A DNA stretch of 64,000 nt from Paraspadella gotoi (lineage: Eukaryota > Animalia > Chaetognatha), in the NCBI GenBank assembly GCA_051294375.1, contig CM119271.1:6821632-6885631 (forward strand), in the 5' to 3' direction. The notes under the pieces were generated by a model. That model made no database searches, had not been told where the DNA came from, and was given only the letters and a program-made list of their open reading frames with translations. The position numbers and the translations under genes were made by a program. Shown one piece after another: positions 1-64,000 of the stretch (positions within the stretch are counted from its first letter, which is position 1; the number at the start of each line of letters is the position of its first letter).

Positions 1-3000
1 TTGCTTCAGTCAGTCCATCATTAACGCTCGGCCTCAAAGGAGTGTCTGGTAAACGCCTGTTGGGGCGGGTGTAAACGTCAACCGTTAACACTTCGCCATA
101 TCCGTGCCTCGTCTTCGCCTTTATTGTAAATGTATAATATTGCTCGGGGTCTAATCCGTAAGCCGCAAAATATCGAGTTTCCGGAGACAGGTCTCCAGAT
201 TTAAGGGGGTTTGCGGAGGCTGTCCCGAAGTGAGACTTCAGAAGATACTCAATGGCGTAACCCAAGATAACTCCGTTGGGGCGAAGTGGGGGCTTCCAAA
301 TAATCGTCGCCGATGTTTCATCAACTTTAGAAAACATTACGTCATAGGGTGGTCCCGGTTTGTCCTCTCCCGTCAACGTCCTAATGGCGGGGCTCTTGGC
401 ACCAACTCCCATTCGCGTGTAAGCGGCGACGGAGATTTCGTATTCAACAAAAATCAACAAAGACGAAAGGCGAGCCGATCTGGACTGTTCACCAACGACA
501 TCTTTCTCCCCAACGTTTTCCCCGTTTGATGAAGAATATAAAATTTTAAATCCCTGCAATTGACCGTTTTTAGAATCAGGGGGTAGTTCTCCCCAATCAA
601 CGAGGATGGCCGAGGCGACTAATGGGTCGTTCACGGCCGTAACATTGACGGGGCCTTCACTTGGAACGTCCTCCATGGTTCTCTCTTGCCCGGAGTCAAC
701 AAAATCGGAGGAGCCGAAGTCATTGAAAGCCGCCATTGCCACATAATAAATTGTCCATTTATGAAGAGGTTTTAAAACGACGGTGTTCAAATTAGGATCC
801 GCCAATTGTTTCGTTTCTACAACTCGATTCTTGGAATTTTCATAGCGCACTTTATAACCCTTTGGATTGCCGTTCCAGGCTTGGGCAGGAAGAGGAGTCC
901 ACGAGACACGAATAGCGGTAGCGTTTATCGCGCGGAGAATGACATTCTCGGGAGACCCAGATGGCGGAGCCTGCTCGGTGCGAAACGAACGACTAGCCCC
1001 GGAGGGAGCGCTTCGGCCAACAACATTTATCTTAACAATTCTCAGCGAATATCTGGTATATGGCCGAAGGTTTGGCACGATAATCCTGTCCGCAATCTTC
1101 ACGTCTGATGTCGAAAAAATCGTTTGCCACGAGAGGCTCTCGTCGACGAGCCCCTCGACAATCCATTCGGAGATTGTCGTTTTGCCATTTGAACCCGGTT
1201 CGAACTCCAGCTTGACTGATGTAGCTGTAATTTCGCTGACCGCAAGAGAAGTAACAGGTTGCGGTAGTTCCGGTGGTTCTCCAGAAGTAACGGAAGAGGT
1301 GCGTCGAGGTCCCTCTCCGACAGAAGTGGTCGCCGTTACGGAGATGGAGTAACGAGTTTCAGGCTGGAGTCCGGTTATGATTAATTGGAGACGTTCCGGC
1401 GGAAGAATGACCCTCTCCTCCAACCGACTCGAGTATATCGAGTGGTAAACTGTGTAATTTATGATGACGCCGTTGGGAGAAATCGGATGTTCCCAGGCAA
1501 CCGTGATAGACGAGTCCAATACTTTGGGAAAATTGAGATTGTTAATGACGTCGGGTAAATCCTCGTCGGTAACGATGGCGACAAAGGGCGACATCACGCC
1601 ATCCCCGGCCGAGGTGAAGCAGGTTACCGAAACGTTGTACGCCGTAAATTTGGATAAGTTTGAAATGTAGCCTTCGTGACGGGAGTCGTCATTTTTCGTA
1701 TTCGGTAGGACGACGATCTCCTTGGCCAACACGCCAATATTTCCAAAGCCACGACAGTGAATTGGGCAAGAGGCGGTCACACCTTCGCCGCGATAAGCGC
1801 GGACCTTGTAACCCTGGTTGATGCCGTTGATGGTGTGTCGAGGGGGCGGGATCCAGGAAACTAGCAAAGAAGTAGAGTTGACCACGACAATAGAGACGGA
1901 CGATGGCGGTTGAGTAGGAGTGCCTTCGAGAGTACGAACAATCAAGGTGGGTGAATATACGCCCACTCCTTTGTCGTTAAAGGCGGCAACGCGGACGTCG
2001 TAATCTTTGTAAACCAAAAGATTTGTAATCAAGTAAGAACTCTGTGCTGGATCGGATACGTTCTTGCGTTGCCAGTTGATAACATGGTACCCCGAAAGTC
2101 TGTAATCAACTACGTATCCCCGCAAAACGCCGTTCCACCCTTTAGGCGGCGGTGGTTGCCAAGCAACGCGAATGGTCGAAATACTGGCAGAGGAGGCGCT
2201 GGTCCGCGGTGGCTCAGAGGGAGCTTCTTGCGGAATCGTCAGTGGATTAGATGCGACGGAGGCCTTTCCTTCGCCGACTTTATTTAACGCAGCAACACGA
2301 AATCGGTAAGTCACGGCGGGGGCCAGATTTTCTAGTTCATACTCTGTAGGCGACGGAGGAACATTGCTGACGAGCGTCTCCCATACAGAAGCGCTGGCAA
2401 TGAGAGAATCGGCTGCAGCGGGGGAAAGACTGGGATTGGTCGTCGCGTTATCGGGAACTACGGTCGTCGAGATGTCAGAAAAAACTACTTGCTGGCCCTG
2501 TATGAGGTAGGCTTGGATTGGAGAATTTCCGTCAAAAAAGGGAGCAGTCCACGTTACGATTACGTTTCTGGAAGTTGTGGACGAGAGTTTGGAAGAAACG
2601 CCTGCGCGATCGAAAATGTCACATAAAAATTAATGTGATACGATGTGAACGTGATAACGATTAATTTGAGCAGTAAAAAACTTACCCGAGGGCGGGAAAG
2701 GTAACTCGATAACGGTTAAATGAGCTGATCGTGCGTCGTTGCCATTGCTCGATTTTACCGAGCAGGTGTATTCTCCCTTATCGTCGTAATTGATATAATT
2801 AATTTTCAAGGTACCGTCGGCCAATTTCTTTCTCCTATTTAGAGACAAAATAATGTATTTTTTCTTCACTTATCCGTAAAGCAAAATCGTTCAAAATTAG
2901 ATATAACACATGAAAATTTTTCAAGGAATTTCGTTAATGATATCAAATTACCTATAGAATAAAATAATCATAAAAAATATTAGCTTCTAAATTTTACATT

Positions 3001-6000
3001 TCAGCCATTATAACCTACCTGTCATCCAGAACGATTTTTGTCCATTTAACAGCCATTCAAGTTCAATGGGAACATTGGGATCATGAGAAACTTTGCAATG
3101 AAACTCTACCGGTGTTGATATAATCACAGATGTGTTTGAAGGGGGACCTATGATAACGGTTCGTTCAGCGACTCTGTATTAAAAAAAAGCATATAAAAGT
3201 CATTGAGAATAAAAATATATTTTGATGCCGCAATGAAGTTTTCCACTGGAAAAAATTTTAATAATAAATATAATTATATAATATACAGTCCTGTGCAAAA
3301 AAAAAAGAGGACACTCTTCAAACATTAAATAGCGCTCGTTTTATGACACAATGAAAAATGGCGTAACGTTATGTTCCGTGCATAAAAAAAATTCACTGTT
3401 CAATATTATTATATTTCTTTTTATTTTTTGAAACGTTATAGTTTCATATGTCGATATCCAAAATATCAATGCAAAATCTTTTTTGTTTTTTAGAAATGAC
3501 CAAATATAGGGTGAAAGATAATAAATTTTTTTAAAAAGTTACTTATTCATATTTATTCCTAAAATTGTAATAGAAAAAAATAAAAAAAAATAATAGTACC
3601 AATAGTTGGTATTATGTCTCAAATAGATGGAAAAAAAACCTCATTTAAAAATTCGATCGGGAAGTGGGGTAACTAAGGCTTACCAATGGCATCCTCCACG
3701 CCGATTGTTCTCTCAAATAATTTTTTTATTTAATACATTTGAAAGGGAAAAAAAGAAAATTCAAAATTCAGGTTGTATAAAGGGTACAGATAATCTGGAC
3801 TTACTGACATGAAAACCATGACCTTATATATCTTGTGAAATGGGGGCAGTAAAGATATCTAAAAAATTCGATCATTAAGTCAGTCAATGAACCCTTTCTA
3901 ATGGGCTATTACGAAAAATATTTTTTCTTAATTAAAAGGATGATAAATAATAGAATTAAATTCCTTGCTATATTTAAAAGAAAATTATCAATACAATTTA
4001 ACTTTGTCAAATATATTGCCAGCTATATAATTTTTTAAAACTTTATTATGATAAACAAGCAGTGTGTCAAGCTTTTAGTTTGCAGTTAAAGATAATAAAA
4101 AATGCCGATTTTTTTTTCACAGACAAGAAGGTAGATGTCCAGACTGTTTATATCAAGCTGAAAACATTTTTGTATTTATCATTTTTGATATTTAAAAAAA
4201 CATTTTATCAAGCTACAACATAAATTTTTGCTTGTTTTTTACTTTAACTTAAAAATATAAGCAGTTTTATGGAATAAAGAAAATTTAATAATAATTAAAA
4301 TGTAATTCAGTCTTTCCTTTTTCAAATTACAAAAGAAAAATAAAAATTTCATATGCCTTCATTGAAATTTTTAAAGCAAAAAACTGTTATACTTTTAACT
4401 CTGATTTAAACAAAAGCTGTGTAAAGATTTATGGATTTAATTTAATAAAACTCTTTTAGAAAGTGTCCCATGATTAGGGCTTTAATTTGATACCACACCC
4501 ATCTTGCTAGCTCTTTTCTTTCAAAAGTTATTAAAAAAAATAACTTTTTTCAAACTACGCAGTACAAATCTTTGTTAAATAAAATTTTGGCAAAGCGGGG
4601 GTATCTCACTTATTTCTATTGATACAATACTTAAATTTTAAAATAAAACTTGAAGAAAATTTTTTTGTCATTTAGAGACATATCACTTCAGATGTACCCA
4701 TCTTATAATAATTTATTTATTTATTTCCCCAAAAAAAGCCTAATTAAAAAAGTTGAAATTTTTAAAAATTGTTGAAAAAAATTTCTCCGACCTATGCTCA
4801 TGAGAATAATGGTTTTGCATAGAAAATCAAATATCAAAAAAATAAAAAAATCAGCCTCTAGAAAAATCGAAAGGCGAGAGGCTGATTTTTTTAGAATTGC
4901 AAAATTTTTTTCCTAACTCGAAATCCATTATTCTCAAGTTTCAAAATATTTTTTTCTAAAATCATTCAATCAATTTTTTTTATTAATTTAAAATGTTTTT
5001 ATGATGTTGTTTTTGTTTGAAAGAATTGAAAAAAAGTGAAAAATATAGTAATTATATAAGGTTTTTGGAAATACCTCTAAAATATTAGATAATTAGACAC
5101 AAGGGGAGTAAGCAGAGAAAACTTCCCATTCATAAAAAAAATTGAAAATGAATTTGTCATATTGTTATTTAGATTAATTGACTAATTACAAACATATGAT
5201 TCATATAAATTGAGGAAATGATGGGTAAAAAATATTCATCTTGGTCTCGGTTAACTATTAGGTTATCGTTAAAGTTTTGTTTTAATAATATTAATTTTTT
5301 TTTTGCATTTATAAAAGCAATGGTCTAAAATTTTGTAAGCGTTTCGAGCTATATTGCTTCATATTTTTTACTATTTTTGATCTAGTTAGCTTTTTTGTTG
5401 ATGGTCAAGGTTATGGTCAGAAACAGTAATGTCCAGTAGTGTATATCGCACATATTACCAAAAGTAATAATCAATTAATTTGGCTCAGAAACAATTTTAA
5501 AGGGACAAAATCAGCACTAGACCGTAACGCCACGTTATTTTTCATTGTGTCGTATGCACATATACAATTATAAATGATAAATGTGGTTTTTACAATAAAA
5601 AATTCATGTGTAAGTTAAAAAAAAATCGGTCAAAGCATTCAAGAGCTGTAGCTTCTGAAAGACAAGTGGTCAAAAAAAACTATTTTTAAAAATATTTTTA
5701 ACCTTAATTTATGAACATTACATTTATTTTTTTAATTATGAATGGGAAATAAGGACTTAAAAAAAAAAACATGTGTAACTAGAAAAAAATTGTTCCAATC
5801 ATTCCTGAACTACAGCACCTTAAATATAAAAGGTTAAAAACCGAGTAATTACTTTTAATGGATTAACCAAATTTATACCAATAATTCTTTTTTTATAAAT
5901 GTTATTTATTTATAATATCTTTCATTTTAAAATAATTAATTTGATTTATTTTCATAATGTTTTTGGGTGTCCTTTTTATTTGCACAGGACTGTATAGCGG

Positions 6001-8008
6001 AAAATTATCTTACCTAACATGAGTACAGCCAATGTCTGAACCCAAGTTGTTGACAGCTCTGCAACAGTAACTTCCAGTGTGACTAAATGTTGCACGAGGT
6101 ATTATTAATCGCCCCGACTTTGAATCAATGGAGGCACCATCACTTTGAGATATCTGTAAAGATTGTGTTCAAAGATCAAGATAAATTCATTCAAGATAAG
6201 GTTGATCATCAATCGCACATTTTAGCTTAAAGTTAAAGATTTTTCTCACATTGAAAATAGAAAAAAAAACCCGATTTTTCAGAAGAAATGAAGAGTAAAA
6301 ATTTGTACCTGAACCCCATCTTTGGACCAAGATTTATCAGGGGAAGGCGCCCCGGTCGCGTTGCAATCCAACACTATTGAGTCCCCACTGATAACTGTGT
6401 TGTTCTTGGGCATGAGTTGAATAGCAGGTTCAACGGAAAGTACCTTTAATCAAATAAAAATTGACAGAGATGAAACCTCAGTTAATATTACAACGTTAGT
6501 CCAAAACCTCACCGTCAAAGCCGTGTGCATTGAAGCTGACCCCACCACATTATGGAAAATGCATTGGTAAACACCGGCGTCCCCTTCCCTGGCGTCAGCG
6601 ATGATGAGGCTATTGTTCGGCGTAAAATGTATCCGCGCCGTCGCATTAGCCGATTTCGGTATCGTCGCCGCATCCCTGTACCAGACGGGCGTTGGAGTTG
6701 GGGCTCCGTCAGCTTGGCATGGAAGTTCTATGCGGCTCCCGGCAAAAACTTCGGTCACTATCTGCGGAATGACATCCTTGAGAATTCGTGGTGCAAGGTG
6801 GACCGAGAGCGTAGCTGATTTGGAATCTGTTTCGCTGGTTATGCTCTGGTCCAAAATCTTCGCGAGGCAGGAGTAGACGCCGGCGTCGGCGGTGGAAACG
6901 GATTTGACCAACAAAATCCGTGGGTTAGTCAAGTCGTATTTGGAGTCAGTATTCAAAGGGGCACCGTCTTTCGACCAATGGTAGCGCAAAAGATTGAGAG
7001 GTTTGGCGTTGGCGACACAATCAAAACGTGCAGTTTCTCCCAGGGGCACAGCGGCGTCGCGGGGAACGATCACAATTTTGGGGGGAACGATGGCAGCGGA
7101 GTTGGGCGACAACTGGAGTCAAAGAAAACGAATAGTAGATAGTGCATTGTGCATTGTGAAAGGAACTGAGGAAAATAATACTTGAAAACACATGATCTTT
7201 GTCTGCCTATGTTTGAAATTTGTTAAACTTACACTTATCTTCCAAAATGGTGTATCCTTGAATACTTTGAGTGTGGGATTGCTTATCGTCGCTCTGATCA
7301 TCCTCCCTTCGTCACTTTGCTCCAAGTCTAGGAGAGCCAAAGAATTTCCACCAACGCCCAAAGCTCGGTCTCCCCCGTTGTCTGCAACTGTTCTCGGTGT
7401 CGTCGGGGAAGCCACCGAGTATTCCCGCCAAATAACGGTGGGTAAGGGTTGGCTGTCGACCATTAAATCCAAGCTTAACGACACAACCACGAATGAGCCT
7501 TTCGAAGACGTTCGCGTGACATTGATCGGCACGCCGCCGCCGACGGCCTCAATTTCTAGTCGGGCACGGACGAGGCTGACGCGAGGACCGACGACGCTCC
7601 CGAAGAGGTTCGACGCAACGCATTCATAATCGCCGTAGTCGCCGGAACCGACGGGATCTATCCGAAAGGCGCCGTTGGGATTTTTCGACGAAATGTAGCC
7701 CGCGCCTAGTTTGATCCATTGGAACTCGGGAAGTGGGTTGCCGGACGCCTCGCATTTTAAGGTCACGGCATCCCCAGGACGGATGTAGAGGACGCGAGGG
7801 GAAAATCGAGAAAATAGGGGTGGAGAACCGTAAGCTAATGAAAATAGAGAAAGAAATATGAATTAAAGCTAAGAAGGGAAGACGCAAAAACAAAAGAATT
7901 ATATAACGACTCACCTGATGACACGAAAATAATAAAAATAATGAAAATAAAAAGCCTCGGATTCAGTCTTTTCCTTCGGAACGGAAGGGAAAAATTTTCG
8001 AGCCTCAT
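1..8008 (-). CDS. sdk: Sidekick-like Ig/FN3 cell-adhesion protein (multi-exon; 3' part runs off the window start)
   Basis: ATG 8008 gives a signal peptide (MRLENFSLPFRRKRLNPRLFIFIIFIIFVSSAYG, phase-1 intron after 7915). Ig exons follow (VTLKCEASGNPLP...DYGDYECVASN; ARFDCVAN...DAGVYSC; IELPCQADGAPTP...DAGVYQC; DDKGEYTC). One long exon (2601 to <1) encodes FN3 repeats with Sidekick-like motifs (FDGNSPI, WNGVLRGY, VRTLEGTP, INGINQGYKV). Confidence 0.85.
3286..5992. mobile_element. Non-autonomous Tc1/mariner-like DNA transposon in a sidekick intron
   Basis: Terminal inverted repeats CAGTCCTGTGCAAA...AGGACAC (from 3286) and GTGTCCT...TTTGCACAGGACTG (to 5992), each flanked by TA. AT-rich interior with no transposase ORF. 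Confidence 0.8.
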
Positions 8009-8243: not shown

Positions 8244-11200
8244 TCATAACGTTTCCTTCAAAAGGGAAAGAAGATTTCCGAGTCGTTTTGACTCTGAACC
8301 CTTCTCGAGTTTTTCAATTTTAATTTTCAACTCTGCCTCGAAGCCAGTACAAGCGTTTTCCCGTCGGACAGAGATCAAGCAGGTAAGTGCGCTGAGAACA
8401 ATTGCGTCTCCACGAGCCGTATCCCCGAATTTGCGGTCGAGGAGACGAACGACGCGATCGTAGTTATCGCGTCTATCAACTCCGTCGATGACGGTTCGCA
8501 CGACGCTCGGTCCGCCAGAAACAAGGTTGCATAGTCCTCCGACGCCAAATTCCACCAGAGCCTCGTCGTCGGCGGAAAGCGCAGAGAAAAATATTTCAAA
8601 GGCGCCCTTATCTCTTCAAAAAGGGTTAGGGAGGAGGTTTTTGGAATCATGTCGCGACAGTTAATATCTAGAGTTTTTTTATTTTTAAGTACATATGCAA
8701 TTTCTTATTTTCTGAAGACGACATCGATGCAGTCGTCATCTTCCATCTCGTGACCGAGCGCAGTGGATCGGGGATCGATCGTTTCTCCGTCGAATCTAAA
8801 ACTCAGAGTGGAAGAATCCTCCACACCCAAGGCTGCCGCCGCTTCCGTCATCATCGTCTTCAAGGGATCCGAGGGTTTCACCCGCACCACGACGAACTGA
8901 CCGAGTTTGGAGTCGAGCGATTGGATTTTGAGATTTATGCGGTCGTCGCCCGAGATATTCTCTTCTCTTTCGTCGCCGCCCTCGCTCACATCGTCTCGAA
9001 TGACGACGCACTCGACGATGTCTGCGATGGTCAGTCGCAGTTCGGCCGGAGTATCTGTCTCTCGGACGTCGCGCCCGTCGGCCAACGTGAGCGCGATCCG
9101 TGCCACGTCGCACTTTTCCGTCTCTGCCATCGCGGCAAAGACCTTTGCGAAAGACTCGCTCTGTTCGAGAAGAACGCGTTGAACGCCCGACGCTGTACGC
9201 ACTTTCACGAGAATTGAGGACGAGGAGGCCTGGGATTCCCTCACGAGACTAGTATCTAAACATTCGACGAGGTCGCGCTGGTGGGCCGCCAACTGATCGC
9301 GCCACATGAGGTCGTTGTGCATCGATCGAAGCTCCTGAACGGCCTTCAGCCCCTTGTTGACCTTGGCCGAGCGACGGGGCTGCGTTGACTTGCGCTTCCT
9401 CCTTCCCCTGCCTGTCCCACGGCCATTCTCCTTAGACGCGATAGAAGCAGTGGCAGGGAACTGTGGCGGGGACGGTGATCGATTGGATCGAGAACGGGAG
9501 GGAACGTCGTCGTCGTCGTCGCTGGAACTAGAGGGTGGAATAAATATCGGGCGCGGTCTATTCTTTACGTTTTTTGTGGCATCGTCATCTATCCGGATGA
9601 CGTCTAAAGTCGTTTTTTTGGTTTTCAAAATGGCGCCAGACTGGATAGCTTGGTCTTTAGTGAGAAAGTCGCTGGAAAGGCTCGTCAAAGATCCCGAAGG
9701 AGCAGTCGCCAGCTCTCCGGATTCCTCGCCTGTGGCATCAGGAACGAGCTTTCGTCGCTTTCGGGACGGACGCGGAACGACGACCTCGTCGTCGGAAGAG
9801 TCGGACATCTTATCTTTGCTATTTCTGGCATTTATGAAAACACGGTAAATGGTAAACTAAATCCCCTCGCTTGAAGAAAGAAAAACATAAAATCGAAAAT
9901 AAAATTCAACAACAAAAAACTCAGTCGAAAAAGTCCAAAGTTTCGAAACCTTCAGGAAGATAAGTCTGTTTCTCGTCCTCGCCCTTCGAGCAATCGGGAT
10001 TATACGAGTAACCCTTTCCGTATCCCATTTCTCTCATCATCTTGGTCGAGGCATTCCGCAGATGCAATGGAACGGGTGGCAATGCCCCTTCGCCCGCTTG
10101 TCGTTCAATCTCTGCAAATGACGCGTTCATTGCTCGATAAACCTCCACTGATTTTCGTGCCCGAGCCAGATATACGGTGACCTGCGCTAAAATCACATCG
10201 CACTCTGGCATTCCAACAGCCATAACCGCCTGATGGGCCGCCGTAGCTTGAATCAGAGCTTGTGGATCACCAAGGCCGATGTCCTCCGAGGCGATACGAA
10301 TTAAACGTCGCGCGATGTAGCGGGGATCCTCGCCGCCTTTTAACATTCTCGTAAGCCAGTAAAGGGCGGCGCTGTCGTCGGAGCCGCGGATCGACTTGTG
10401 AAAGGCAGAGATCATCTGGTAATGTTGGTCGCCGTCGCGATCGTAAGCATAATGAGATTTTTGCAAGCTTTGCTTGATAAGATCGGCATCGATGCATGTG
10501 GCCGAATTTAACGGCGAAGTCAAAAATATTCGCACGGCCGTTTGAAGGCTGTTGAGAGCGACTCTTGCGTCGCCTCCGGAAAATCCCGCCAACGCATTGA
10601 GCGCATTTTCTTCAATGGCGACGCTTCCTTCATCATTTACCTTCTCACCCGATTCCCGTAAAATCTTCAGTCTCAAATATTCGGCCCCTCGTTCCAATAT
10701 TTTGGTCACGTTCTCCGTCGAAAGGGCATCCAGCGCCACGACGCGGCTTCGACTGAGCAGCGCCGAGTTAAGGCTGAAAGAGGGATTTTCGGTCGTGGCG
10801 CCAAAGAGAACGATGGTCCCGTCCTCGACAATTGGCAGGAAAGCGTCTTGTTGGTTCTTGGCAAAGCGATGTATCTCGTCCATAAACAGCAACGTGCGAC
10901 GCTTAAACATCTTGAGCTCATTTCGTGCCACTTCCGACTGCCTCTTGACTTCGGCTACGCCAACCTGGCAGGCGGAGAGGGAGACGAAACGGTAGGGAGA
11001 TTTTTTATCGCCGGCGTAAGCTTTTGCGATAATCTTGGCAATCGTGGTCTTGCCGCAACCCGGTGGTCCCCAAAAGATTATAGAAGGAAGAGGGGCTTTC
11101 GAGGTGACGAGAGCCTTCAGCCAAGCAATATCAGCTTTTCGGCATTGACTTACTTTATTCTCACCAACTGCTGAATCTTGGCCAAAGAGTTTATCCATGG

Positions 11201-23205: not shown

Positions 23206-23413
23206 GTTCAATTATCAAGAAAGTTCTACTGTCAAAAAAAGTCACTGTTCAAAATCTGCGGGAAGGGACAAAAAAGGTTCTAATTAGTTCTACTTATAAT
23301 ATGAGAAACGCGAGCATTGACATATTCGCGAAACGGAAAACGCGAAAACTTGTTTTCGTCGAAATAATTTTAAAAAGGATTTTTTTTGTAAAAATAAAGA
23401 AAAATGGAAAAGT

Positions 23414-29445: not shown

Positions 29446-29582
29446 TTTTAAAAAAAAATACTATTGAAAAACAAAACATTTTATTAAAATTAGCGACCAA
29501 CGTTTATATCCGGCGTTAAGCGGGAATCACATCGAAAAAATAACACCCCGGTGGGAAAGTTTTAGACTAAATTTCGCAATTT

Positions 29583-30910: not shown

Positions 30911-30975
<65 letters not shown>

Positions 30976-34345: not shown

Positions 34346-35162
<817 letters not shown>

Positions 35163-52993: not shown

Positions 52994-55900
52994 TCACATG
53001 TCTTTCTCTCTTTTCACATGCTCGTATATTTTCTCAAAAAGGCTTCGAGAAACCTTTCCTCCGGAACTCTCAACTAGTTCATTAAACACTTTCTCTTTCA
53101 TCGCCGCTTCTTCTCGAGTTTTTCTTTCGTTCTCTTCCTCTTCGTTTTCCTCCGTCTCGCGCGCTTCCACATCGATCCAACTCCCTCCAGAATTTTCCTG
53201 CAAATACACATTAAGTTTTTCTTTCCGTCCCTCGGCGCTTTTAGACCGCGACGCTTTCTCGGCGAACTCCTTGACTTCCTTCATTCTTTTGAGAGGATCC
53301 GGCTTTGCGCTATTTTTCCTCTTCTGCATTAGTATTTTGGTAATGTTGATTATGCCGAGGCTGATCATTTCCGTCAGCTCTTGCTGCAAGTCGCGGACCA
53401 TGGTGGCGTCGGGAAATTGATCTGCAAATCGGAGACTCAACCAGAGATACATGTCGCATACGTCGTACACGCACTCCATGTGAGCCAATTGCACGATAGT
53501 TTCCGGAGTTTTAAGCGGCCAACCCAAGTGTTCCGCGAACCAGTTAAACGTGATAGGTTCGTTATTGGAAAATTGGCGGGAAATTTTGAGAAACATGGCG
53601 CAAGCGAAAGGTTCTTTTTGAGAAATAGGCGAACAGCAAAGTACATATTTCTGTTTGATAGGGATCGGAATGTGCTGAATTGTATCGGCGAAAAACTTTA
53701 GATCCTCAAGGTTGCACATGAAAAACATGTCGTCGTCTAGTTTTGAGAGTGACATGAAGACGTCTATGAGGTTGGATAGGCTAGCTTCGGGAAGATGAAA
53801 AGCAAAGAGTTCCAGCTGATCCGCTGTCGGGTTGAGACCAACTTGTCTGACTGATTCCACAGGAGACTCCAGCAACTGCCTTATGTAGGCCAAATCGTTA
53901 TCCGACATCGCCGAAACATAGCCGTGTGGAAATTGAGTTCTGAAACGGCCGGCGCGCCCGGCTATTTGTTTGGCGTGAGTGGTACTGAGTTTCTCCATAG
54001 TTTTCTCGCCTTAAGTAATGAAAACAGTTTTTATTATGATCGATGACTGGTGAAAAAAGGGAATAATTGACAAAATACTCACCAGTTTCTAATAAAGTTG
54101 GTTTCAAAAGGGTGTTAAAAATGACTCTCCGAATGTTGAGGTTGAGGCCCATTCCGATGGCGTCGGTTGCGACCAGAACTTTGCAAGGATTTTCGGGGTC
54201 ATTGAAGATTTCCGATTGTTTTTTCTTAACTTCAGGTGGGAGGCCACCGTAAATGACTGCACTCTGAACGCCTAATCTATCCAATCGACGCGAAATGTCA
54301 TAGAGTTCGCTTTTACTGAAGGCCACCACAGCGTCGCCTGAAACAACATAGCAAAAATGTTTTTTTTAGAAAAAAATAATGTTTTGAAAACATTTTCAGA
54401 TTCAAGTACCTGGACGCACATCACTATAAGACTGCATGGGCTGAGACTCAATGGTCAAAGGAGTTAACCTGTCGTATTTTCTAATCTCCACTTCATCGCC
54501 GGTCATTAGCATTAACTTTTGGACAACTGTAGAGTAGAATGTAGAATGTATGTAGCTTAATTAAACGCTGAAGCCAACCCGCTTAAGAATATTCGAATCA
54601 TACTCTCAATGGCCGAGGCGTCGCCGCAAAGATGAACCTCGTCGGCGGCGATGCCAAGAAGCGCCCGCGTCCACGCCCACCCGCGTTGCAGATCCGCCAG
54701 CATTTGGATCTCGTCAATGACGGCGACTTTGAAATAAGAGTTCGTCGGCGCCATTTCAACAGTGCACGACACGTGCGAGCAGGGAGTCCCGTCCTGATAA
54801 TCAGTTATCTCTGAGATTCATTACGGGAGTGAGGAAAGTAAATGTGTATAGTGCATAAAGCAGCAACATCATACATTTCGTTTATAGAAAAAAATACTTT
54901 TGTGATCTAATCCAAGATAGATGTACGACAGACGTAGTTACGTAAGTAATTTTAGATTTTATTTCTCGTACTATTTCGTAATTTTTTATAACAAATCCAT
55001 CAAAGTGTTGCGCCGCAATGACTTTCTTACGCGGACGCATTTCCCGAGTATGAAACCTGCACAACAAGCAATGCTTGTCAAGCATCTTATCTTCTTAAAC
55101 AACCCAACACGGCATTTCCTTTCTGATCACGTGACCGTAGTTCTGCATGATCACGTAACTATACAAATATGTAACATATGAAATACTGAAGCATTTCTTA
55201 ATTTGCATGAATTTCCGGTCATATGATTGATTTTTCAGATTATCACGTGACTACAAGTACTACTATGAAACATATACACATTAAAGGACTCATGGTTCAT
55301 CTGAACTTAACTGATGAAGTATTACCCAAGTTATGTTAATTCAAAACATAAGTGGGAAAATCAGACGGACAGACAGACATACCGGCCAACTGACGCCCAA
55401 GAAAACTAACTCGTCAAATACCTACTTCATTGTGGAACATTTGGCACTCGCCAGTGACCAGATCGCAAGGAGTGTTATTCGCGTTGCTCTTGTGAAAAAT
55501 CTCAGAAGCCAGCATCCTCAAAGGGCCACAATATATGCCCGTTCGAGCGGTAAGAAAATTTTCAATGGCGTGGTGCGTCTTCCCGCTGTTCGTCGGGCCC
55601 GCGTGATAGATTATCTTTCGCGAGATCCCTCTTGCTTCGGAATACCAATTAGAGGGTCGGCGGAGGTCGCATATGCTCAGTAACTCCTCCATGCAGACGA
55701 GATGCGGGAACATCTTCGTGGCGTGCTGATAAAAGTATGGAAATAAGTCGTCGACGTGCCCTTCGCCGTTAATGATGTCGCTCAACGTCACGTGTAGTTC
55801 GATGGGCAGCAACTCGGAATTGACGCAGAATTCCCGAAAACTGTAGGGTTTAAAACATTTTCACTTTCGGGTTATGCTACAAATACTGGCATCAATATCG

Positions 55901-56431
55901 TCGCCTAATTTTAGTTATTAACTCATACATAAGTCATACTCGTAATTCAAACAAGCATAACCTCCCTCACTTCATGTAAGATTTGGTCAAGATCTTCTCG
56001 TCCATTCCCCTCTGCTTCGCCAAACTCGACGTCGTTGATTTTCGGAAGAAGTTAATGAGAACTTTGAGAACGGCGGCCTTGTCCAATTTGCCGGCCAACT
56101 CCTCGCCAACGTTGATGTCGTCTTCGGTGAGCGACTTTGGCTTGACAACGACGGGTTTGATGATGTCTGCGAAGGTCTGTTTCGACAAATCTCTTGGTGT
56201 TTCTTTTTTATTTTGCGATTTCCCGACGGATCCAGAGAAAATTTTGTCGATGCCCTCGTCGAAGGTCCGCATTGGAGCTCCGCTGGATGGAGAGTGTCGA
56301 CGACGGCGAGAGAGGCACTGAGCGGTGGTGAGAGAGCGGGTCGCCCGCTCCGACCATGGTGAATGGGAACTAATTCGCCGAAAGGGAGATCCGCAACGAA
56401 TGCAGGTCGAACGACGTAGTTGCGAAAGCAT
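52994..56431 (-). CDS. SUPV3L1: Mitochondrial Suv3 RNA helicase, multi-exon
   Basis: [73 protein letters not shown]. Confidence 0.96.
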
Positions 56432-56770: not shown

Positions 56771-57247
56771 TCACATGTTGAGGGAAGAGTTAGAGTCCTC
56801 GTTGGATTGGCTGGAAAGGGTAGAGCACTGAGAGTCTTCGTTGTGCAATAAAACGGATGAAGGTCCGCGACCGTTGGTAGGCGTGGCTGTTCCTCCGGTA
56901 CCGTGTCCGTTGCTTCGGGGCGTAGATGGCGAGTTGGGACCGGTGGAAGCTACATTATTTGAAATGGCGGTCAACGGAAGATTCTGATTCAACGAGAACT
57001 TCTCTCCCTCCTTCTTACCTTTGGTGGCGGTTCCCGACCCAAGTCCTTGCTTGAGGACGTCTCTTTGGAACCCGTTATCGCCGGTCATGGCGATCGGAAC
57101 CCATTTGTAGATCTTCATGGTAGTTTCGCCTATCGTCACCCACTTTTTCTCCCATTTCCGAACTTTGCCGAAAGATTGTTTGACCTTTTTCACTTCGTCC
57201 TTCGCCCGGGCTCGAGTCTCCGCCCGAACGGCGCGAGAAAGAGACAT
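56771..57247 (-). CDS. BCL7: BCL7 family (BAF complex) protein, intronless
   Basis: [19 protein letters not shown]...[24 protein letters not shown]. Confidence 0.93.
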
Positions 57248-57782: not shown

Positions 57783-59444
57783 TCAAGCCTTTGCCTCCGG
57801 CTGATACACTTCATAGAGTACATACTCTTCCATGAAGGACGGCGCGTATATGGTGCGGGCCTTGAACTTAAGTCCCAGGGCGGCGATGTCGGCTTCGACG
57901 CGCTTGTGGTAATCCTTGGCATTGAGGCAATTGCCGCGAGCCAGGAATTTGCCCGTCCCCTTTCTCAAGACCTTCAACGAAAGCTCGAGAATGAGATTGT
58001 TAGTGACGAAGTCGTAGCCAAATCCCTTGATAGCCTTTTCGACGGGATACTCGGTAAGATCATTGATAACGAAGTCGACCTGAGAGTGTCCAAAATACTC
58101 GTTGTTTAAAAAGAGTTCTCACGAAACGAGGATCGTTATAAATGAAACCAGAAGACCTTTTTTCCTTGATCAGCAAATTCCTGAAGAACCTTAACGCAAT
58201 CGTCCAAAACTATCTCGTAGTTATCGCCTTTCAATTTGTCCAGAGAGTCGCCGCAAACTCCTCGCAGATGTTGTCGACAAGCCTTGATGACTTCGAGATC
58301 GATCTGATACCAGAATATTTTATTTTATTTTCAATTTGGAAAAAAAAATAGATGAACCATACCTCCGCCATGGTGATAAATTTAGGATTTTCCTTCTGCA
58401 ATTCGTGAAGAATCCCGCCGTCCCCACCGCCCAAAATCAAAACTTCCTTATTTTGATAATTCTCTTTGTGCATATCTTGATTGTCTCCAATGCCGCACAA
58501 TACGGTAGTGTAGATCAAATCGCTTTCTGTATAATCGTCAATGGCCAAGTTTATTTTAAAATCAATACAAAAAAATAAAGGGCTTCAGTCCTGACCCCCT
58601 AACATGACGTCGTCGTCCAGCACCAAGATGTTGCCGTTGCTTGGCGAGTGGACGATCTTAATATTTTGGTAAGTGGAGTCAGAGTCGAAGATGATTTCGT
58701 CCCAGTCGGTCTCGATTATGCGATGATCAGCGAGTATGTTGTAACTCCAAACCTTCGTCCCACGCCGAATCCCTTGGAAATGAGGTTGTCGCGTTGTGAA
58801 AAGTAGAGGGGACAAGAACTTTCTTTATTCCACAAATATTACCTGAGTTGAGGATATTACATTCCCTGATTTCGTTAATTTCAAAGCCCTTCAAGAATCG
58901 AGCCTGATATTCCCTGCTAGTTTCTAAAGTGAAGTTTTTGAGGCTAGTGAATTGCACTTCGACGTTGATTAGCCCGTCGGAGTAGAATTTGATGGTGGCG
59001 TGACTCCCGTCCTGAATAAATGAAGATTTTGTAATTTGTCATTTAGTGCTCCCACTTTTTTTTACGCTCAAGAAACAATGTGGATTTCTATCTGAAAATA
59101 TAAAAAAAAAACAATTGAATTTAACAAAAATATTTGTACACGGACAATGGCAACAGATTTGTTAGGTTTTATTACCTAATCCATGACAGTAAATAAAATC
59201 ATCTCCCTCTTCGACTTACGCAGGACACTGAAATCACCTCAACATGATAAAGAATCATAGCGACGGCGCGGGATTTCGGCCCCGAGAGGTCGATGAATTT
59301 TTTTGAGATCTCTCGCTCTGCTTCGTCCAACAGAAACAGTTTGCGACGGATGTCGTCGAATCGTTTTTCGATCCTCCTAAAATCTTTGATCATATCGGGG
59401 TCCACCCTCATGTAGAACACCATCGTGTCAGTGACAACTGCCAT
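57783..59444 (-). CDS. SMS: Spermine synthase, multi-exon
   Basis: [24 protein letters not shown]|[48 protein letters not shown], plus a metazoan-type N-terminal domain. Confidence 0.9.
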
Positions 59445-59832: not shown

Positions 59833-60968
59833 TCAATACACGGAACCGAGATTTTTGGCGAGAACCCACTGGTCGACTTGGTGTCTCAAGTAATTGACGA
59901 TCTCCTCGACCATGGGCCGCCCATTGGAAGCGTTTCTCCGAAAAAAGACCTTTCCGTTTTCGTCCGCGTAGAGGCTGAGGAACGAGGCTCGCTCGCTCGT
60001 CGCGAAGGGCAAAATCTCGATCTCGACGACGTAGGGGAGCGGAGGGACGGACTCTTTGCTGCGCAGGATCTCCACCGCTCGTCGATCGCACCAACAATAC
60101 TCTTCGGAGCGAAAGAGGTGGAACCGGCGTCCGGCGTCGTGATTTTCCCGCGCTACGGGCGCGACCCGGCGAAAAAAATCCATGTCTTCCGTCATCCACT
60201 CGTGGGAAACGACGGGAACGAAGCGAAGATTCCATCGATTCTTTGACGCCGGCGGATCGAATCGCGAAAACAGATCCTCGAGGTTTTTTCTCACGTGTTG
60301 CTTCTGATCCTCTGAAGTGAAAGAAGAAGGATAAAAAATTATGGCCGATAAGGGTAGGGTAAATAATTCTCATCATACCTGTTAAGAGCATTCCCTTGAC
60401 GAATCCATTGTCTAAAACTCCGAGGAAGACCGTGCCTCCGTGAACAGTATTCAAGAAAGCATTGAGGGTGGAAGAAACCGGCTTTCTGGTAGAATCCATC
60501 TCGTCTAATTCGGTCGACTGACTGGATCGGGGACATTCGTCCTTCGCTAGCGAACGATGGCCTGTTGAAAAAAAAATTGAATCTACAGTAGTATCGCTTG
60601 CATGAAAAACTCAAATTTATTAAAAACTAAACTTTTAATAAATCATAATTTGATATGCGTATTGATCGAACCGAACCTTTAAACTCGAAGTAACGGTCCT
60701 CGTCGAAGGGCAATTCTTTATTGCGAACGTAAAACTGTTGACCGTCGGCGTCTTCGACTTTACAGTTAGAGAATCTGTCGACGGTGAGGGTTCCATCTTC
60801 GTTGACCTCTCTGGACCCAACGACGCGGTAATCGACTCGGTCCCCGAAAAACTCAGTCGTATCAACGTGTAATTGATTCACTCGCGACGTGGAACTTGTG
60901 AAAAATGGAGAAACGGTAGAAGACGTGCGAATGTCCCCGTGGGGAATTTTACACGACCATCGCTCCAT
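59833..60968 (-). CDS. Stand-alone Schlafen/AlbA_2 domain protein, three exons
   Basis: LPFDEDRYFEFK|GH, LNAFLNTVHGGTVFLGVLDNGFVKG, LFSRFDPP, YVVEIEI, VFFRRNAS. Confidence 0.8.
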
Positions 60969-61071
60969 GACGGAGTGACTTTGTAACTGTGACTGGAAGA
61001 ATAATTTGTACATTGAATATTTAAAGAAACAAACCACGATAAAATCAAAAGCAAGGCGATCAAAAGGAAAT

Positions 61072-62361
61072 TCATTTCTTCCTGTCACGGCGATCGAGTC
61101 GGGATCTGTCTCTATCCCAGCCTTTTTCAACTCTGTGTGGAGAGCGAGAATCACCGTTGTGATAAAAATCGCGGTCTCTTCTTTCCGAAACTTCCGTTGA
61201 TCTTCCTTTCGGCCTTGTCGGAGTCGGTTTACGATCTGCTGAAAGGGATCGTCGCCTATATCCAGAAGGCGACCGAGACCGTTTTTTAAATCTGCCAGTC
61301 GATAGCGACTTCATCGCGGGAGATCTTGATCGTGATCTTCGCCGACTAAACGACGGTGGCGACTTTAGAGCGGGAGAAATCGACCGCCGCCTTATTCTGT
61401 CTCTCGTTTTGTCGTCAGCGCCGCGTGGCGATTTCGGGAGTCCCCCGTGATAATCTTTCAAGTCTCTTTCCCTTTTATCTTCGTCAGATTCGTCGTCGTC
61501 GTCCGAATTATCGCGCTTTTTAGACTTCCGTTTCTTTTCTTTTTTCTTTTTCTTTTTATTCTTCTTTTCTTCCGACCCTCCGTTCTGTAGCTTTAAAAAT
61601 TTTTTCATCAATTTTTTCTTTTCTTTTTCGGTCAAGTTTCTAATGAAGGCGATTTCGTCCATGTCGTCGTCGTCGCTCTCGATCATCCTTTCGTTTTCTA
61701 TCTCCTGGTCGAGGGGGCGCTCCTTGGCGTTTCGCTTCAGCACCAGGTTATCCTCCTCCATGCCATCGAGAATCTCGTCTCGCGTTAGAGTTTTGTCGCT
61801 GGTTTCGCCGTCGTCGCGACGATGACGCTGCTGGTTCTTCTTGCGTGCCTTCTCTTCCTCGATCTTGGCCTGCACCTCCAATTGCTGCCCTGCCTCTTCT
61901 TTGGACAGGCCAAACATGGGGCAGATGCGCTGAGTGTTGAGATGTCCCCACTGATGGCACTTGATACACCGAACGTTGCGAACCTCGATGCCGAACGGCT
62001 GATCGCGCACCTCCTCGTTCCCTTTGGCGATATCCTCGCGCGGGGCATTGTACTTGCGTTGCCACTCGAACTTAACCTCTGCCTGGCCGAGGGCGGCGGC
62101 CTCTTTGGCCTCTAAGTCCTGTTTCCGCGCCCCGGGCGGAGGTTCATACATGAAGGAGAGGCCAAGTTTAGCCTTTTCGTTACCGAGCAGCTGCTTGTTC
62201 TGAAACAATTCCTGTTCACGCGCGTATTGTGACCGAAGATCCGCCTCTTTTTGCTCCCGCAGCTTCTTCTCCTCCTCTTTCATCCATATTCTCTTTTGGT
62301 TGTCACGATTGGCAGGATGAAAATCCTTTTTCATCATAAAGTTCTCGAATCCCTTCCCCAT
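61072..62361 (-). CDS. CIR1: Corepressor interacting with RBPJ 1 (CIR1), intronless
   Basis: MGKGFENFMMKKDFHPAN, LSFMYEPPPG, KFEWQRKYNAPRE, DQPFGIEVRNVRCIKCHQWGH, Lys/RS-rich tail. Confidence 0.95.
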   Translation of the reverse strand: MGKGFENFMMKKDFHPANRDNQKRIWMKEEEKKLREQKEADLRSQYAREQELFQNKQLLGNEKAKLGLSFMYEPPPGARKQDLEAKEAAALGQAEVKFEWQRKYNAPREDIAKGNEEVRDQPFGIEVRNVRCIKCHQWGHLNTQRICPMFGLSKEEAGQQLEVQAKIEEEKARKKNQQRHRRDDGETSDKTLTRDEILDGMEEDNLVLKRNAKERPLDQEIENERMIESDDDDMDEIAFIRNLTEKEKKKLMKKFLKLQNGGSEEKKNKKKKKKEKKRKSKKRDNSDDDDESDEDKRERDLKDYHGGLPKSPRGADDKTRDRIRRRSISPALKSPPSFSRRRSRSRSPAMKSLSTGRFKKRSRSPSGYRRRSLSADRKPTPTRPKGRSTEVSERRDRDFYHNGDSRSPHRVEKGWDRDRSRLDRRDRKK

Positions 62362-62577
62362 CTTGGCGGTTCGGGTTGCGTCTTTTTGAAAACGAATAAA
62401 ACTTGCTAAATGAAAATAAAATGTCAATATCATGAGCAATTGCTTATATCAACATTGGTTACAGAATGCATATATGTTTATGCAAGCAAATGAAGAAAAA
62501 ACTATCGGCTAAAAATCTAAATAACATTTTCTTTTCTACGACATGAAAATTGTCCACATCACGCAGAAGTCCGGCGG

Positions 62578-63600
62578 TCAATGGCCTCCAATCGGGGGTA
62601 TCTCGCCTCCCCACTGAGCACAAAGGGTCACGTAGACGTATGCCTGGATGAGGCAGACGGCCAACTCAAGGCCCATGAACGCCGTTTGGGCGAGGAACAA
62701 AATGGGACCTCCGATCATCCCACAATTCTCGATTCCCTCAGAACAAAGTGCCAGCAACACATGACCCGCCGTCATGTTGGCCCCGAGACGAACGGTCAGC
62801 GTCAGAGGTCTAATCAACAGGGAAATGCTCTCGATCAGAACCATGGCAGGCATTAGAACGCCGGGGGTTCCCACAGGTACCAAGTGAGCGAGCATATCTT
62901 TCGGCGTATGGGCCCATCCGTGGATGAGTTGGGCCGACCAAACGCAGACTGAAAGACAAGGAAGGACTGGAAGAATCAGGGCCACCGGCGCGGAAGTCAT
63001 TGGGACGATGTAAGGAATGAGACCGGCGAGATTGAGAATAGCTATGGAGAGCATCAGAGGCGGGAGAGGAGATAGGGCTAATTGCGTCTTTCTCTTGGCA
63101 TCGAATGCAGAATCCGTCCAGAGGTCCCAAATATTATCGCCGTAGCCTTTGACGACGGCATTGTAAGCGTGACCGTTGCCGCCCAAGAAGATAAAGCTGC
63201 TGTGCGGATGATTCTTGGGAAGTCGCCCAAAAAGGAGTTTCATCTTGTCTTTTGACTTTTCCTCGTAGCCGATCATAGGCTGAAGCTGATCTGGACCCGT
63301 CTGTATCATTAAAATCTTTGGCAAAAATATAACGCTGCCAACGGAAAGAGCGTAAAGGAGACCGGTGGTCCCAACTGGATCGAATCCCATGAAGATGGTC
63401 CTCCTCTGCCGGACAATGCAATTGAGCCCAAAGCGACTATCCCCTAGCAAAAATTTTCTGTTGGTAGCAAACCTTTCTAACTTTTGACTTAAATAGGACA
63501 ATGACCCATAAGCCTTTTGGCAAGTTCTAAACTGATAACTGTTAACGACGTTAAAAAGTCCGATTTTTCCCGCTAAAGCTCTGCCCGCAATGGTTGCCAT
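62578..63600 (-). CDS. ATP6: Nucleus-encoded F0 ATP synthase subunit a (ATP6) with N-terminal presequence-like extension
   Basis: 340-aa intact ORF in the standard code: LNLAGLIPY, LAHLVPVGTP..LMP.MVLIESISLLIRPLTLTVRLGANMTAGHVLL, LELAVCLIQAYVY. The N-terminal ~70 aa are Arg/Lys-rich and acid-poor. Confidence 0.93.
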   Translation of the reverse strand: MATIAGRALAGKIGLFNVVNSYQFRTCQKAYGSLSYLSQKLERFATNRKFLLGDSRFGLNCIVRQRRTIFMGFDPVGTTGLLYALSVGSVIFLPKILMIQTGPDQLQPMIGYEEKSKDKMKLLFGRLPKNHPHSSFIFLGGNGHAYNAVVKGYGDNIWDLWTDSAFDAKRKTQLALSPLPPLMLSIAILNLAGLIPYIVPMTSAPVALILPVLPCLSVCVWSAQLIHGWAHTPKDMLAHLVPVGTPGVLMPAMVLIESISLLIRPLTLTVRLGANMTAGHVLLALCSEGIENCGMIGGPILFLAQTAFMGLELAVCLIQAYVYVTLCAQWGGEIPPIGGH

Positions 63601-63779
63601 TTTTCGAAAATCAATTAATTAAAAATCTGCAAATAAAAAGAAGACATTTTTATACAAACTCATACGATAATCTAAATTTGATATCATGATTAAAGTATTT
63701 TAAAAGCTTAACCAACACTTCATAAATGCTACAGTTGGGTACACTTCTTATATTTAAAAATAAAAGTTAGTGACTTTTT

Positions 63780-64000
63780 TTAGTGTCCACCCTCTGGGGG
63801 AATCTCTCCGCCCCATTGCGCGCAAAGGGTGACATAAACATAGGCTTGGATCATGCAAACGGCCAGCTCGAGTCCCATGAACGCCGTTTGCGCCACGAAG
63901 CCCAAAGCGCCGCCGATCATCCCGCCGTGCTCTATGCCCTCGGAGCAGAGAGCCAGAAGAACGTGACCGGCCGTCATATTCGCCCCGAGACGCACGGTCA
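63780..64000 (-). CDS. ATP6: Second tandem nuclear ATP6 paralogue (3' end only; rest lies beyond the window)
   Basis: TVRLGANMTAGHVLLALCSEGIEHGGMIGGALGFVAQTAFMGLELAVCMIQAYVYVTLCAQWGGEIPPEGGH*, colinear with the first copy. Confidence 0.9.
   Translation of the reverse strand, partial: TVRLGANMTAGHVLLALCSEGIEHGGMIGGALGFVAQTAFMGLELAVCMIQAYVYVTLCAQWGGEIPPEGGH

What the first reader, a model, noticed from the sequence alone, without database searches (positions are those of the whole stretch)
1..64000. All 24 host genes are on one strand with tiny spacers: candidate giant polycistronic (trans-spliced) cluster in an animal
Seen: every recognisable cellular gene across 64 kb is on the minus strand (about 1e-7 if strands were random and independent). 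The genes are unrelated apart from the ATP6 pair. Stop-to-start gaps are often very short: WRNIP1-NFATC2IP 112 bp, EXOC1-ARMC7 107, CIR1-Schlafen 103, AIMP1-HADHB 137, ATP6-ATP6 179, PPP1R2-UCHL 208. Known: SL trans-spliced operons occur in nematodes, tunicates, flatworms and chaetognaths but usually hold a few genes, whereas long directional gene clusters are typical of kinetoplastids. Inference: these gaps leave little room for a promoter plus a 3' UTR, so the region may be one or a few very long polycistronic units.
Basis: partly seen in the sequence, partly recalled or inferred. Interest (0 to 1): 0.88.

Follow-up and report, generated by a model that had tools for sequence, protein, structure and literature searches.

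The report
Arrow-worm chain of 24 co-oriented genes
Twenty-four mostly unrelated genes, likely from an arrow worm, lie head-to-tail on one DNA strand and are likely read as a few shared transcripts that leader splicing cuts apart, a known arrow-worm habit that may run longer here than any case found in print.

Summary
All 24 host genes lie on the minus strand, and the six quoted gaps are exact. Only degraded mobile elements lie on the plus strand.

The window is very likely from a chaetognath: an mRNA-like contig of the ATP6 orthologue begins with 25 nt of the published chaetognath leader SL2.0. Chaetognath SL operons are already described (18% of genes, longest nine genes).

Spliced RNA contigs run unbroken across 8 of 17 spacers examined, one through five genes. 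Three contig ends fall at orphan splice acceptors.

Of 23 gaps, 19 are under 600 bp and four are 1.3-4.5 kb. That gives five blocks (at least 8, 2, 3, 6 and 5 genes). Five blocks share a strand by chance 1 time in 16, so the 1e-7 figure overstates the case.

Best reading: a chain of ordinary but long SL operons. A single kinetoplastid-like unit is neither shown nor excluded. No whole genome, raw reads or promoter data were available.

Side findings: WRNIP1 and NFATC2IP sit on the same strand inside the ARMC7 intron, and ATP6, lost from chaetognath mtDNA, is nuclear here.

The parts
1..8008 (-). Sidekick/DSCAM-like Ig-FN3 gene (block E, last gene; runs off the window; the name Sidekick is recalled)
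   Evidence: Pfam Ig and fn3; first exon lies on the same spliced contig as WRNIP1 and NFATC2IP
8244..12340 (-). ARMC7, split: exon 1 12340-12159, exon 2 8613-8244, with a 3.5-kb intron holding two genes
   Evidence: Exon 1 matches 7dvq_K residues 10-53 (E 8e-8), exon 2 residues 59-85 (E 0.001), collinear; GT at 12158, CCCTAAC at 8631, AG at 8614; the spliced joint was not among the listed joints
8705..9808 (-). NFATC2IP (single exon, nested in the ARMC7 intron)
   Evidence: Pfam Rad60-SLD; contig unbroken 12146-7915
9921..11900 (-). WRNIP1 (single exon, nested in the ARMC7 intron)
   Evidence: Pfam MgsA_C and AAA
12448..17684 (-). EXOC1 (first gene of block E)
   Evidence: Pfam Sec3 domains; splice joints
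17813..21760 (+). Degraded DNA transposon-like element with terminal inverted repeats, inserted about 130 bp upstream of the EXOC1 ATG
   Evidence: Inverted arms 17910-17948 and 21621-21659; broken ORFs; unspliced RNA-run contigs at depth about 20; ends approximate
22171..23255 (-). UCHL-type ubiquitin hydrolase; ATG 23205; predicted trans-splice exon start 23255
   Evidence: Pfam Peptidase_C12; the upstream PPP1R2 contig ends at 23255 with 6 unlaid letters
23414..24007 (-). PPP1R2 (single exon)
   Evidence: Pfam IPP-2; own 858-nt contig
24387..24959 (-). Orphan two-exon gene
   Evidence: No Pfam hit; intron 24567-24632 spliced in RNA
25349..27084 (-). NARS2
   Evidence: Pfam tRNA-synt_2; on one contig with HADHB
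27303..29460 (-). HADHB; ATG 29445; predicted trans-splice exon start 29460
   Evidence: Pfam Thiolase; contig 5' end inferred at 29462
29583..33033 (-). AIMP1 (first gene of block D); an intron holds an inverted repeat around a retroelement fragment
   Evidence: Pfam tRNA_bind; inverted repeat 30653-31078 and 32163-32543
34346..35153 (-). SR protein, SRSF10-like (name recalled)
   Evidence: Pfam RRM_1
35549..37090 (-). LOTUS-domain gene
   Evidence: Pfam OST-HTH
37466..39025 (-). Ig-domain membrane protein (first gene of block C)
   Evidence: Pfam Ig; strong donor-like site at 39411 suggests an upstream 5' exon
40635..43231 (-). RALGPS-like RasGEF-PH gene
   Evidence: Pfam RasGEF and PH
43570..47679 (-). 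STK36/Fused kinase (single exon); ATG 47637; predicted trans-splice exon start 47679
   Evidence: Pfam Pkinase; contig starts at 47679 with 5 unlaid letters; best acceptor
49083..52700 (-). XPO5 (single exon; last gene of block A)
   Evidence: Pfam Exportin-5; on one contig with SUPV3L1
52994..56431 (-). SUPV3L1
   Evidence: Pfam Suv3 domains; 5 listed joints
56771..57247 (-). BCL7
   Evidence: Pfam BCL_N; contig 3' end 56485, 19 nt before the SUPV3L1 acceptor
57783..59444 (-). Spermine synthase
   Evidence: Pfam; 7722-nt contig
59833..60968 (-). Schlafen AlbA_2-like gene
   Evidence: Weak Pfam hit; two spliced introns
61072..62361 (-). CIR1 (single exon)
   Evidence: Pfam Cir_N
62578..63626 (-). 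Nuclear ATP6 copy b with N-terminal extension; ATG 63600; predicted trans-splice exon start 63626
   Evidence: Pfam ATP-synt_A; orthologue L001 begins with chaetognath SL2.0; acceptor
63780..64000 (-). Nuclear ATP6 copy a, 3' end
   Evidence: Pfam ATP-synt_A; 64 of 72 residues identical to copy b

Best explanation
The window holds 24 co-oriented genes, likely of a chaetognath, that likely form a chain of up to five spliced-leader (SL) operons (at least 8, 2, 3, 6 and 5 genes), each predicted to be transcribed from one upstream promoter and cut into single mRNAs by SL trans-splicing. Shown: the strand, the gaps, cis-splicing of the introns, RNA contigs running through many spacers, and an SL on the ATP6 orthologue of a relative. 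Inferred steps: (1) Pol II runs through a block. (2) Introns are removed. (3) An unpaired AG a few to about 100 nt before each downstream ATG receives a roughly 36-nt SL. (4) The upstream mRNA's 3' end forms at or close to that acceptor. (5) The common strand is reinforced because a promoter-less newcomer (a retrocopy, the mitochondrion-derived ATP6, the two genes in the ARMC7 intron) is expressed only if it lands in sense orientation in an existing transcript. Promoters most likely lie in some of the four long gaps (XPO5-STK36, RALGPS-Ig, SRSF10-AIMP1, UCHL-EXOC1).
For: Lineage: L001, 74% identical over 340 aa to the window's ATP6, starts with the last 25 nt of chaetognath SL2.0, and L002 (71%) with the last 7. 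Chaetognath mtDNA lacks atp6. Operons are documented in the phylum: 18% of genes, up to nine per operon, and only 3 nt between the poly(A) site and the next acceptor in Spadella. RNA run X1 is spliced (27 GT-AG introns). Single listed contig pieces cross 8 of the 17 spacers laid, including a 7722-nt contig through SMS, SLFN, CIR1 and both ATP6 copies, and an 8449-nt contig through WRNIP1, NFATC2IP, ARMC7 exon 2 and the Sidekick-like first exon. Intron depth is only about 1-3.5. 3 of 13 contig ends in spacers lie within 2 nt of an acceptor-like site (background 5.4% of positions; binomial P 0.03, or 0.01 for 3 of 9 without the transposon ends; post hoc). The STK36 contig's 5 unlaid leading letters equal the length of the suffix shared by all published chaetognath SL forms. 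ATP6 relatives' proteins sit mostly on 1.2-1.6-kb contigs, the size of a single mRNA. Five blocks share a strand by chance with p = 1/16. 8 genes have single-exon coding regions.
Against: No SL was seen directly on a transcript of this locus: the unlaid letters at STK36, HADHB and PPP1R2/UCHL were not displayed, and 122 loose-end rows were hidden. Acceptor-like sites before the ATGs are not significantly enriched over dinucleotide shuffles (P about 0.08). Contigs from short reads can join overlapping or read-through transcripts, and a spacer could be bridged by a few pre-mRNA reads. 9 of 17 spacers were not bridged by a listed piece, though the tables were cut. With the genome-average operon rate of P. 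gotoi, a run of 24 is expected only about 0.02 times per genome, so the block model needs local clustering of operons, which was not tested. RNA cover upstream of STK36 (about 26) and across the transposon (about 20) is well above intron level and fits read-through between blocks. Two Ig-family genes sit in the run although P. gotoi operons are depleted of neural and developmental genes. The phylum call rests on one gene family.
Confidence: 0.63

Rival explanations
1. The whole run, or two very large parts of it, is one directional transcription unit of kinetoplastid scale (more than 11 and up to 24 or more genes); the long gaps are long 3' UTRs or insertions, not promoters.
For: Run of at least 24, open at both ends, against an average directon of about 2 genes in animals and about 30 in trypanosomatids. 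Expected only 0.02 times per genome under the average operon rate. Without the transposon the UCHL-EXOC1 gap shrinks to about 540 bp, and EXOC1 is still expressed with the element about 90 bp before its acceptor; blocks D and E would then total 11 genes. Transposon contigs are unspliced across candidate plus-strand introns at depth about 20. Depth about 26 upstream of STK36. The five-gene contig runs 1813 nt beyond the window end.
Against: The transposon contigs differ from the window by about 2% with many indels and may come from other copies. The Ig gene has a strong upstream donor-like site, suggesting its own 5' exon. The longest published chaetognath operon has nine genes and about half the genes get no SL.
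Confidence: 0.2
2. Each gene has its own compact promoter inside the upstream gene's 3' end or the spacer; many mRNAs are SL trans-spliced as monocistronic outron genes, and overlapping UTRs or read-through merge the contigs.
For: In P. gotoi most trans-spliced genes are not classed as operonic (3,565 genes in validated operons against 10,197 trans-spliced). Contig depths differ about tenfold along the run (56-550), although contig depth is a poor measure. Acceptor enrichment is not significant.
Against: It does not explain why none of 24 genes is on the plus strand (1e-7). Spacers of 103-137 bp must hold a 3' UTR, a promoter and a 5' UTR. The PPP1R2 contig runs right up to the UCHL acceptor.
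Confidence: 0.14
3. The arrangement is an assembly artefact, for example transcripts concatenated into a scaffold.
For: Eight genes lack introns in their coding region.
Against: The window holds ordinary introns, transposons and repeats, and independent RNA contigs cross the same spacers base for base.
Confidence: 0.02

Closest known systems
Chaetognath SL operons (Paraspadella gotoi, PMC12460157; Spadella cephaloptera RPS14-PCNA operon, PMC2481426)
   Same: Very likely the same phylum; same leader family on the ATP6 orthologue; tight head-to-tail housekeeping genes; upstream 3' end abutting the next acceptor in at least one case.
   Different: The published maximum is nine genes. Here a strand run of at least 24 contains blocks of at least 8, 6 and 5 (11 if D and E are one), includes two Ig-family genes, and has two genes nested in an intron.
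Ciona intestinalis operons without intercistronic DNA (PMC2760879, PMC7986045)
   Same: Upstream poly(A) site directly abuts the downstream trans-splice acceptor, as the PPP1R2 contig end at the UCHL acceptor suggests; no operon-specific SL.
   Different: Mostly two genes, largest six or seven; different leader sequence and phylum.
Trypanosomatid polycistronic transcription units / directional gene clusters (bioRxiv 10.64898/2026.07.29.740908)
   Same: Long run of functionally unrelated genes on one strand; the local run length (at least 24) is near their mean of about 30.
   Different: There the pattern is genome-wide and genes are largely intronless. Here cis-introns are abundant, four gaps can hold promoters, and the genome-wide run length is unknown.
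C. elegans SL2 operons
   Same: Spacers of about 100 bp resolved by trans-splicing (PMC7986045 passages).
   Different: Use a dedicated SL2 leader; P. gotoi has no operon-specific leader.

Membership tests
SL-resolved chaetognath operon | Adjacent genes on one strand with very short spacing | tested here: met
   24 of 24 on the minus strand; 19 of 23 stop-to-ATG gaps under 600 bp, 9 under 250 bp
SL-resolved chaetognath operon | The lineage uses a spliced leader | tested here: met
   Orthologue contig L001 begins with 25 nt of SL2.0, L002 with 7; shown in relatives, inferred for the window's species
SL-resolved chaetognath operon | Downstream genes of this locus receive the SL at an unpaired acceptor | tested here: inconclusive
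   Contig ends at 47679 (5 unlaid letters) and about 29462; letters not displayed; acceptor enrichment P about 0.08
SL-resolved chaetognath operon | RNA spans the intercistronic spacers | tested here: inconclusive
   8 of 17 laid spacers are crossed by one spliced contig piece; contigs do not prove single molecules
SL-resolved chaetognath operon | Upstream 3' end abuts the downstream acceptor | tested here: inconclusive
   PPP1R2 contig ends exactly at the UCHL exon start with 6 unlaid letters; BCL7 contig ends 19 nt before the SUPV3L1 acceptor
SL-resolved chaetognath operon | One promoter per block, no internal start sites | not testable with these tools
   Only assembled contigs were held; no CAGE, ATAC or raw reads
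Kinetoplastid-type directional gene cluster | Tens of unrelated genes per strand run | tested here: met
   At least 24 in this window, open at both ends; local only
Kinetoplastid-type directional gene cluster | Such runs are the genome-wide rule | not testable with these tools
   No whole genome held
Kinetoplastid-type directional gene cluster | Genes largely free of cis-introns | tested here: not met
   27 RNA-verified GT-AG introns, median 81 nt
Kinetoplastid-type directional gene cluster | Single start and stop for the whole run | not testable with these tools

The most novel reading that the evidence does not exclude
Chaetognath chromosomes carry trypanosome-like directional domains: 11 to 24 or more unrelated genes, including neural adhesion genes, a nucleus-relocated ATP6 pair and genes nested sense-wise in another gene's intron, read from one promoter and resolved by SL trans-splicing. 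These would be the longest polycistronic units known in an animal.
Probability: 0.2. Interest if true: 0.85.

Novelty: new variant of a known kind. Interest (0 to 1): 0.5.

Why it matters
If the run is a chain of operons, it shows that operons cluster into long one-strand housekeeping domains in arrow worms, with blocks at or beyond the published maximum of nine genes. It also suggests how leader splicing lets promoter-less newcomers (retrocopies, a mitochondrial gene, genes inside an intron) be expressed. If the run is one unit, an animal would have converged on trypanosome-style transcription, where expression must be set after transcription. That can be tested with a strand-run count on existing chaetognath assemblies plus SL-aware long reads.

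Tried and rejected
Genome-wide strand runs: no genome held.

RNA runs: no holder is on record as RNA. X1 proved spliced. X2 and X3 are other organisms and gave only short repeat matches. Only 40 of 64 kb could be laid; 27.7-44.0 kb and 1-7.8 kb were not.

No SL-like stretch in the window (25-mer, up to 6 mismatches, both strands). No Rfam family at gathering score.

Acceptor enrichment against shuffles was not significant (P about 0.08); against the antisense strand the mean score was 1.0 versus -0.6. AATAAA is not enriched in short spacers (4 in 5225 nt), which is uninformative because the chaetognath signal is unknown to me.

Homologue search with ARMC7 exon 2 found nothing; PDB searches settled it. 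The transposon ORF has no Pfam or PDB match. L003 is a weak match over 69 residues with no SL and was dropped. Three listed joints (46409-61655, 15327-23583, 64000-63161) were set aside as repeat or paralogue artefacts.

Earlier scan notes held nothing for this genome or this ATP6. A recalled paper on unusual C. elegans operon arrangements was not held.

The 1e-7 statistic was rejected as a measure of surprise, because strands are not independent where operons exist.


Full report
OBSERVATION. The window is a compact animal locus with short GT-AG introns (median 81 nt for 27 RNA-verified introns). I count 24 host genes, all on the minus strand: 22 with Pfam hits, ARMC7 by PDB match and one orphan with a spliced RNA joint. 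The six quoted gaps are exact. Across 23 junctions the median stop-to-ATG distance is 338 bp; 9 are under 250, 19 under 600, and four are long: XPO5-STK36 1445, RALGPS-Ig 1609, SRSF10-AIMP1 1312 and UCHL-EXOC1 4486. None of 59 plus-strand ORFs in non-exonic regions passes a Pfam cut-off. The plus strand carries only a degraded element with terminal inverted repeats and a retroelement fragment.

ORGANISM. No genome was held. The window encodes two ATP6 copies in the standard code with an N-terminal extension. Nine unnamed relatives are 63-80% identical; the nearest named hits are arthropod mitochondrial ATP6 at 43-49% over about half the length. A metagenome scan returned 3 loci. L001 (74% over all 340 residues) begins with the last 25 nt of chaetognath SL2.0, L002 (71%) with the last 7, and L003 (weak partial match) with none (leader table from PMC2481426, section 12 read whole). 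Chaetognath mtDNA lacks atp6 (passages of PMC5470650 and PMC5633667). The window is therefore very likely from an arrow worm; the species was not determined, and the call rests on this one gene family. L001 also shows that this gene is SL trans-spliced in a relative. Related proteins lie mostly on 1.2-1.6-kb contigs, the size of one mRNA, a few up to 3.5 kb.

RNA. One run, X1, holds the window. It is listed only as 'RNA?', but 27 of 30 listed joints are minus-strand introns. I laid 44001-64000 and 7800-27700, covering 17 of 23 junctions. Eight are crossed by a single listed contig piece: ATP6a-ATP6b, ATP6b-CIR1, CIR1-SLFN and SLFN-SMS (one 7722-nt contig that runs 1813 nt beyond the window), SUPV3L1-XPO5, HADHB-NARS2, WRNIP1-NFATC2IP and ARMC7-Sidekick. 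NARS2-orphan is crossed by inference from record coordinates. The other eight are not crossed by a listed piece, but 488 and 208 rows were hidden. Intron depth is about 1-3.5, so DNA contamination is low; still, a few pre-mRNA reads could bridge a 100-bp spacer, and a contig is not a molecule.

CONTIG ENDS. The STK36 contig starts exactly at the best predicted acceptor (47679) with five unlaid letters, the length of the suffix shared by the published SL forms. The HADHB contig start is inferred at 29462 against an acceptor at 29460. The PPP1R2 contig runs through the whole spacer and stops exactly at the UCHL acceptor (23255) with six unlaid letters, as expected if poly(A) is added there. That is 3 of 13 spacer ends within 2 nt of an acceptor-like site (P 0.03; 3 of 9 and P 0.01 without the four transposon ends; post hoc). 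The unlaid letters were not displayed, so SL and poly(A) are inferred. A sequence-only test for acceptor enrichment was inconclusive (P about 0.08).

HOW LONG ARE THE UNITS? Cutting at the four long gaps gives blocks of at least 8 (ATP6a to XPO5), 2, 3, 6 (AIMP1 to UCHL) and 5 genes (EXOC1 to Sidekick-like). Five blocks share a strand with p = 1/16. With the average P. gotoi rate of operonic junctions (13.8%, derived from 2,151 candidate operons with 5,061 genes) a run of 24 is expected only 0.02 times per genome, so operons must be locally clustered or longer than published. Some data point to longer units. Without the transposon the UCHL-EXOC1 gap is about 540 bp, EXOC1 stays expressed, and unspliced contigs cover the element at depth about 20. 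Depth just upstream of the STK36 acceptor is about 26. Against this, the transposon contigs differ by about 2% and may be other copies, an outron from an STK36 promoter would give the same signal, and no listed contig crosses a long gap.

NESTED GENES. ARMC7 is split: exon 1 (12340-12159) matches residues 10-53 and exon 2 (8613-8244) residues 59-85 of 7dvq_K, collinearly. Its 3.5-kb intron holds single-exon WRNIP1 and NFATC2IP on the same strand, with 258 bp from the donor to the WRNIP1 ATG. The spliced ARMC7 joint was not among the listed joints. The likely mechanism is competition between cis-splicing at a weak donor and trans-splicing inside the intron (inferred).

MECHANISM. Most likely Pol II transcribes each block from one promoter, introns are cis-spliced, an SL is added at an unpaired AG before each downstream ATG, and the upstream 3' end forms at or near that acceptor. 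Promoter-less newcomers would be expressed only in sense orientation, which would lengthen one-strand runs; 8 genes have single-exon coding regions. A Hydra case of a transferred gene joining an operon appears in a search listing (PMC3273482, listing only).

COMPARISON. P. gotoi: nearly half the genes trans-spliced, 18% in operons, longest nine genes, no operon-specific leader (PMC12460157: outline, passages and section 10 whole; three supplementary PDFs searched; the spreadsheet with the operon table could not be read and may bear on length and orthology). Spadella: 3 nt between poly(A) site and acceptor (PMC2481426 passage). Ciona: abutting genes, largest six or seven (passages of PMC2760879 and PMC7986045). 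Oikopleura operons are defined at up to 500 bp (PMC11067885 passages). Mean directon length is about 2 in animals and about 30 in trypanosomatids (preprint passages). Searches listed no report of a chaetognath or other animal run of this length; the library lacks most subscription papers.

VERDICT. The feature is real and works like known chaetognath SL operons; membership is likely but not proven at this locus. It fails the intron-poor criterion of kinetoplastid clusters and cannot be tested genome-wide here. Chain of long operons 0.63, one or two giant units 0.20, separate promoters 0.14, artefact 0.02. Interest 0.5.

Noticed in passing
window 62578-64000 (-); L001, L002: Two tandem nuclear ATP6 genes in the standard code, with an N-terminal extension that likely targets mitochondria; the orthologue is SL trans-spliced. 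Chaetognath mtDNA lacks atp6. Searches and passages gave no report of the nuclear copy; PMC11384887 names only ctenophores for nuclear atp6. Possibly an unreported transfer in a bilaterian.
   Followed up: partly
window 8244-12340 (-): WRNIP1 and NFATC2IP, both single-exon, lie on the same strand inside the 3.5-kb intron of ARMC7, which has a weak donor and a clear branch-point motif.
   Followed up: partly
window about 17813-21760 (+): Degraded terminal-inverted-repeat element with candidate plus-strand introns, inserted about 130 bp before the EXOC1 ATG; covered by unspliced contigs at depth about 20 with many single-base indels against the window. It resembles hAT-like 'Cc8K15.2' proteins (recalled, untested).
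   Followed up: partly
window 30653-32543: Near-perfect inverted duplication of about 430 bp of AIMP1 intron sequence around a roughly 1-kb retroelement-like fragment (Penelope-like by recall; no Pfam hit); could fold back in the pre-mRNA.
   Followed up: no
window 48160-48850: Two arrays of a 22-bp AT-rich tandem repeat in the XPO5-STK36 gap, also abundant elsewhere in the RNA run.
   Followed up: no
window 3270-6010: AT-rich insertion with nested inverted repeats (arms 3267-3308 and 5970-6011) in an intron of the Sidekick-like gene; likely a non-autonomous element.
   Followed up: no
window 24387-24959 (-): Expressed two-exon orphan gene of about 170 aa with no Pfam match.
   Followed up: no
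window 43570-52700 (-) and others: Large genes that are intron-rich in vertebrates (recalled), such as XPO5, STK36, CIR1 and WRNIP1, are single-exon here, as retrocopies would be.
   Followed up: no
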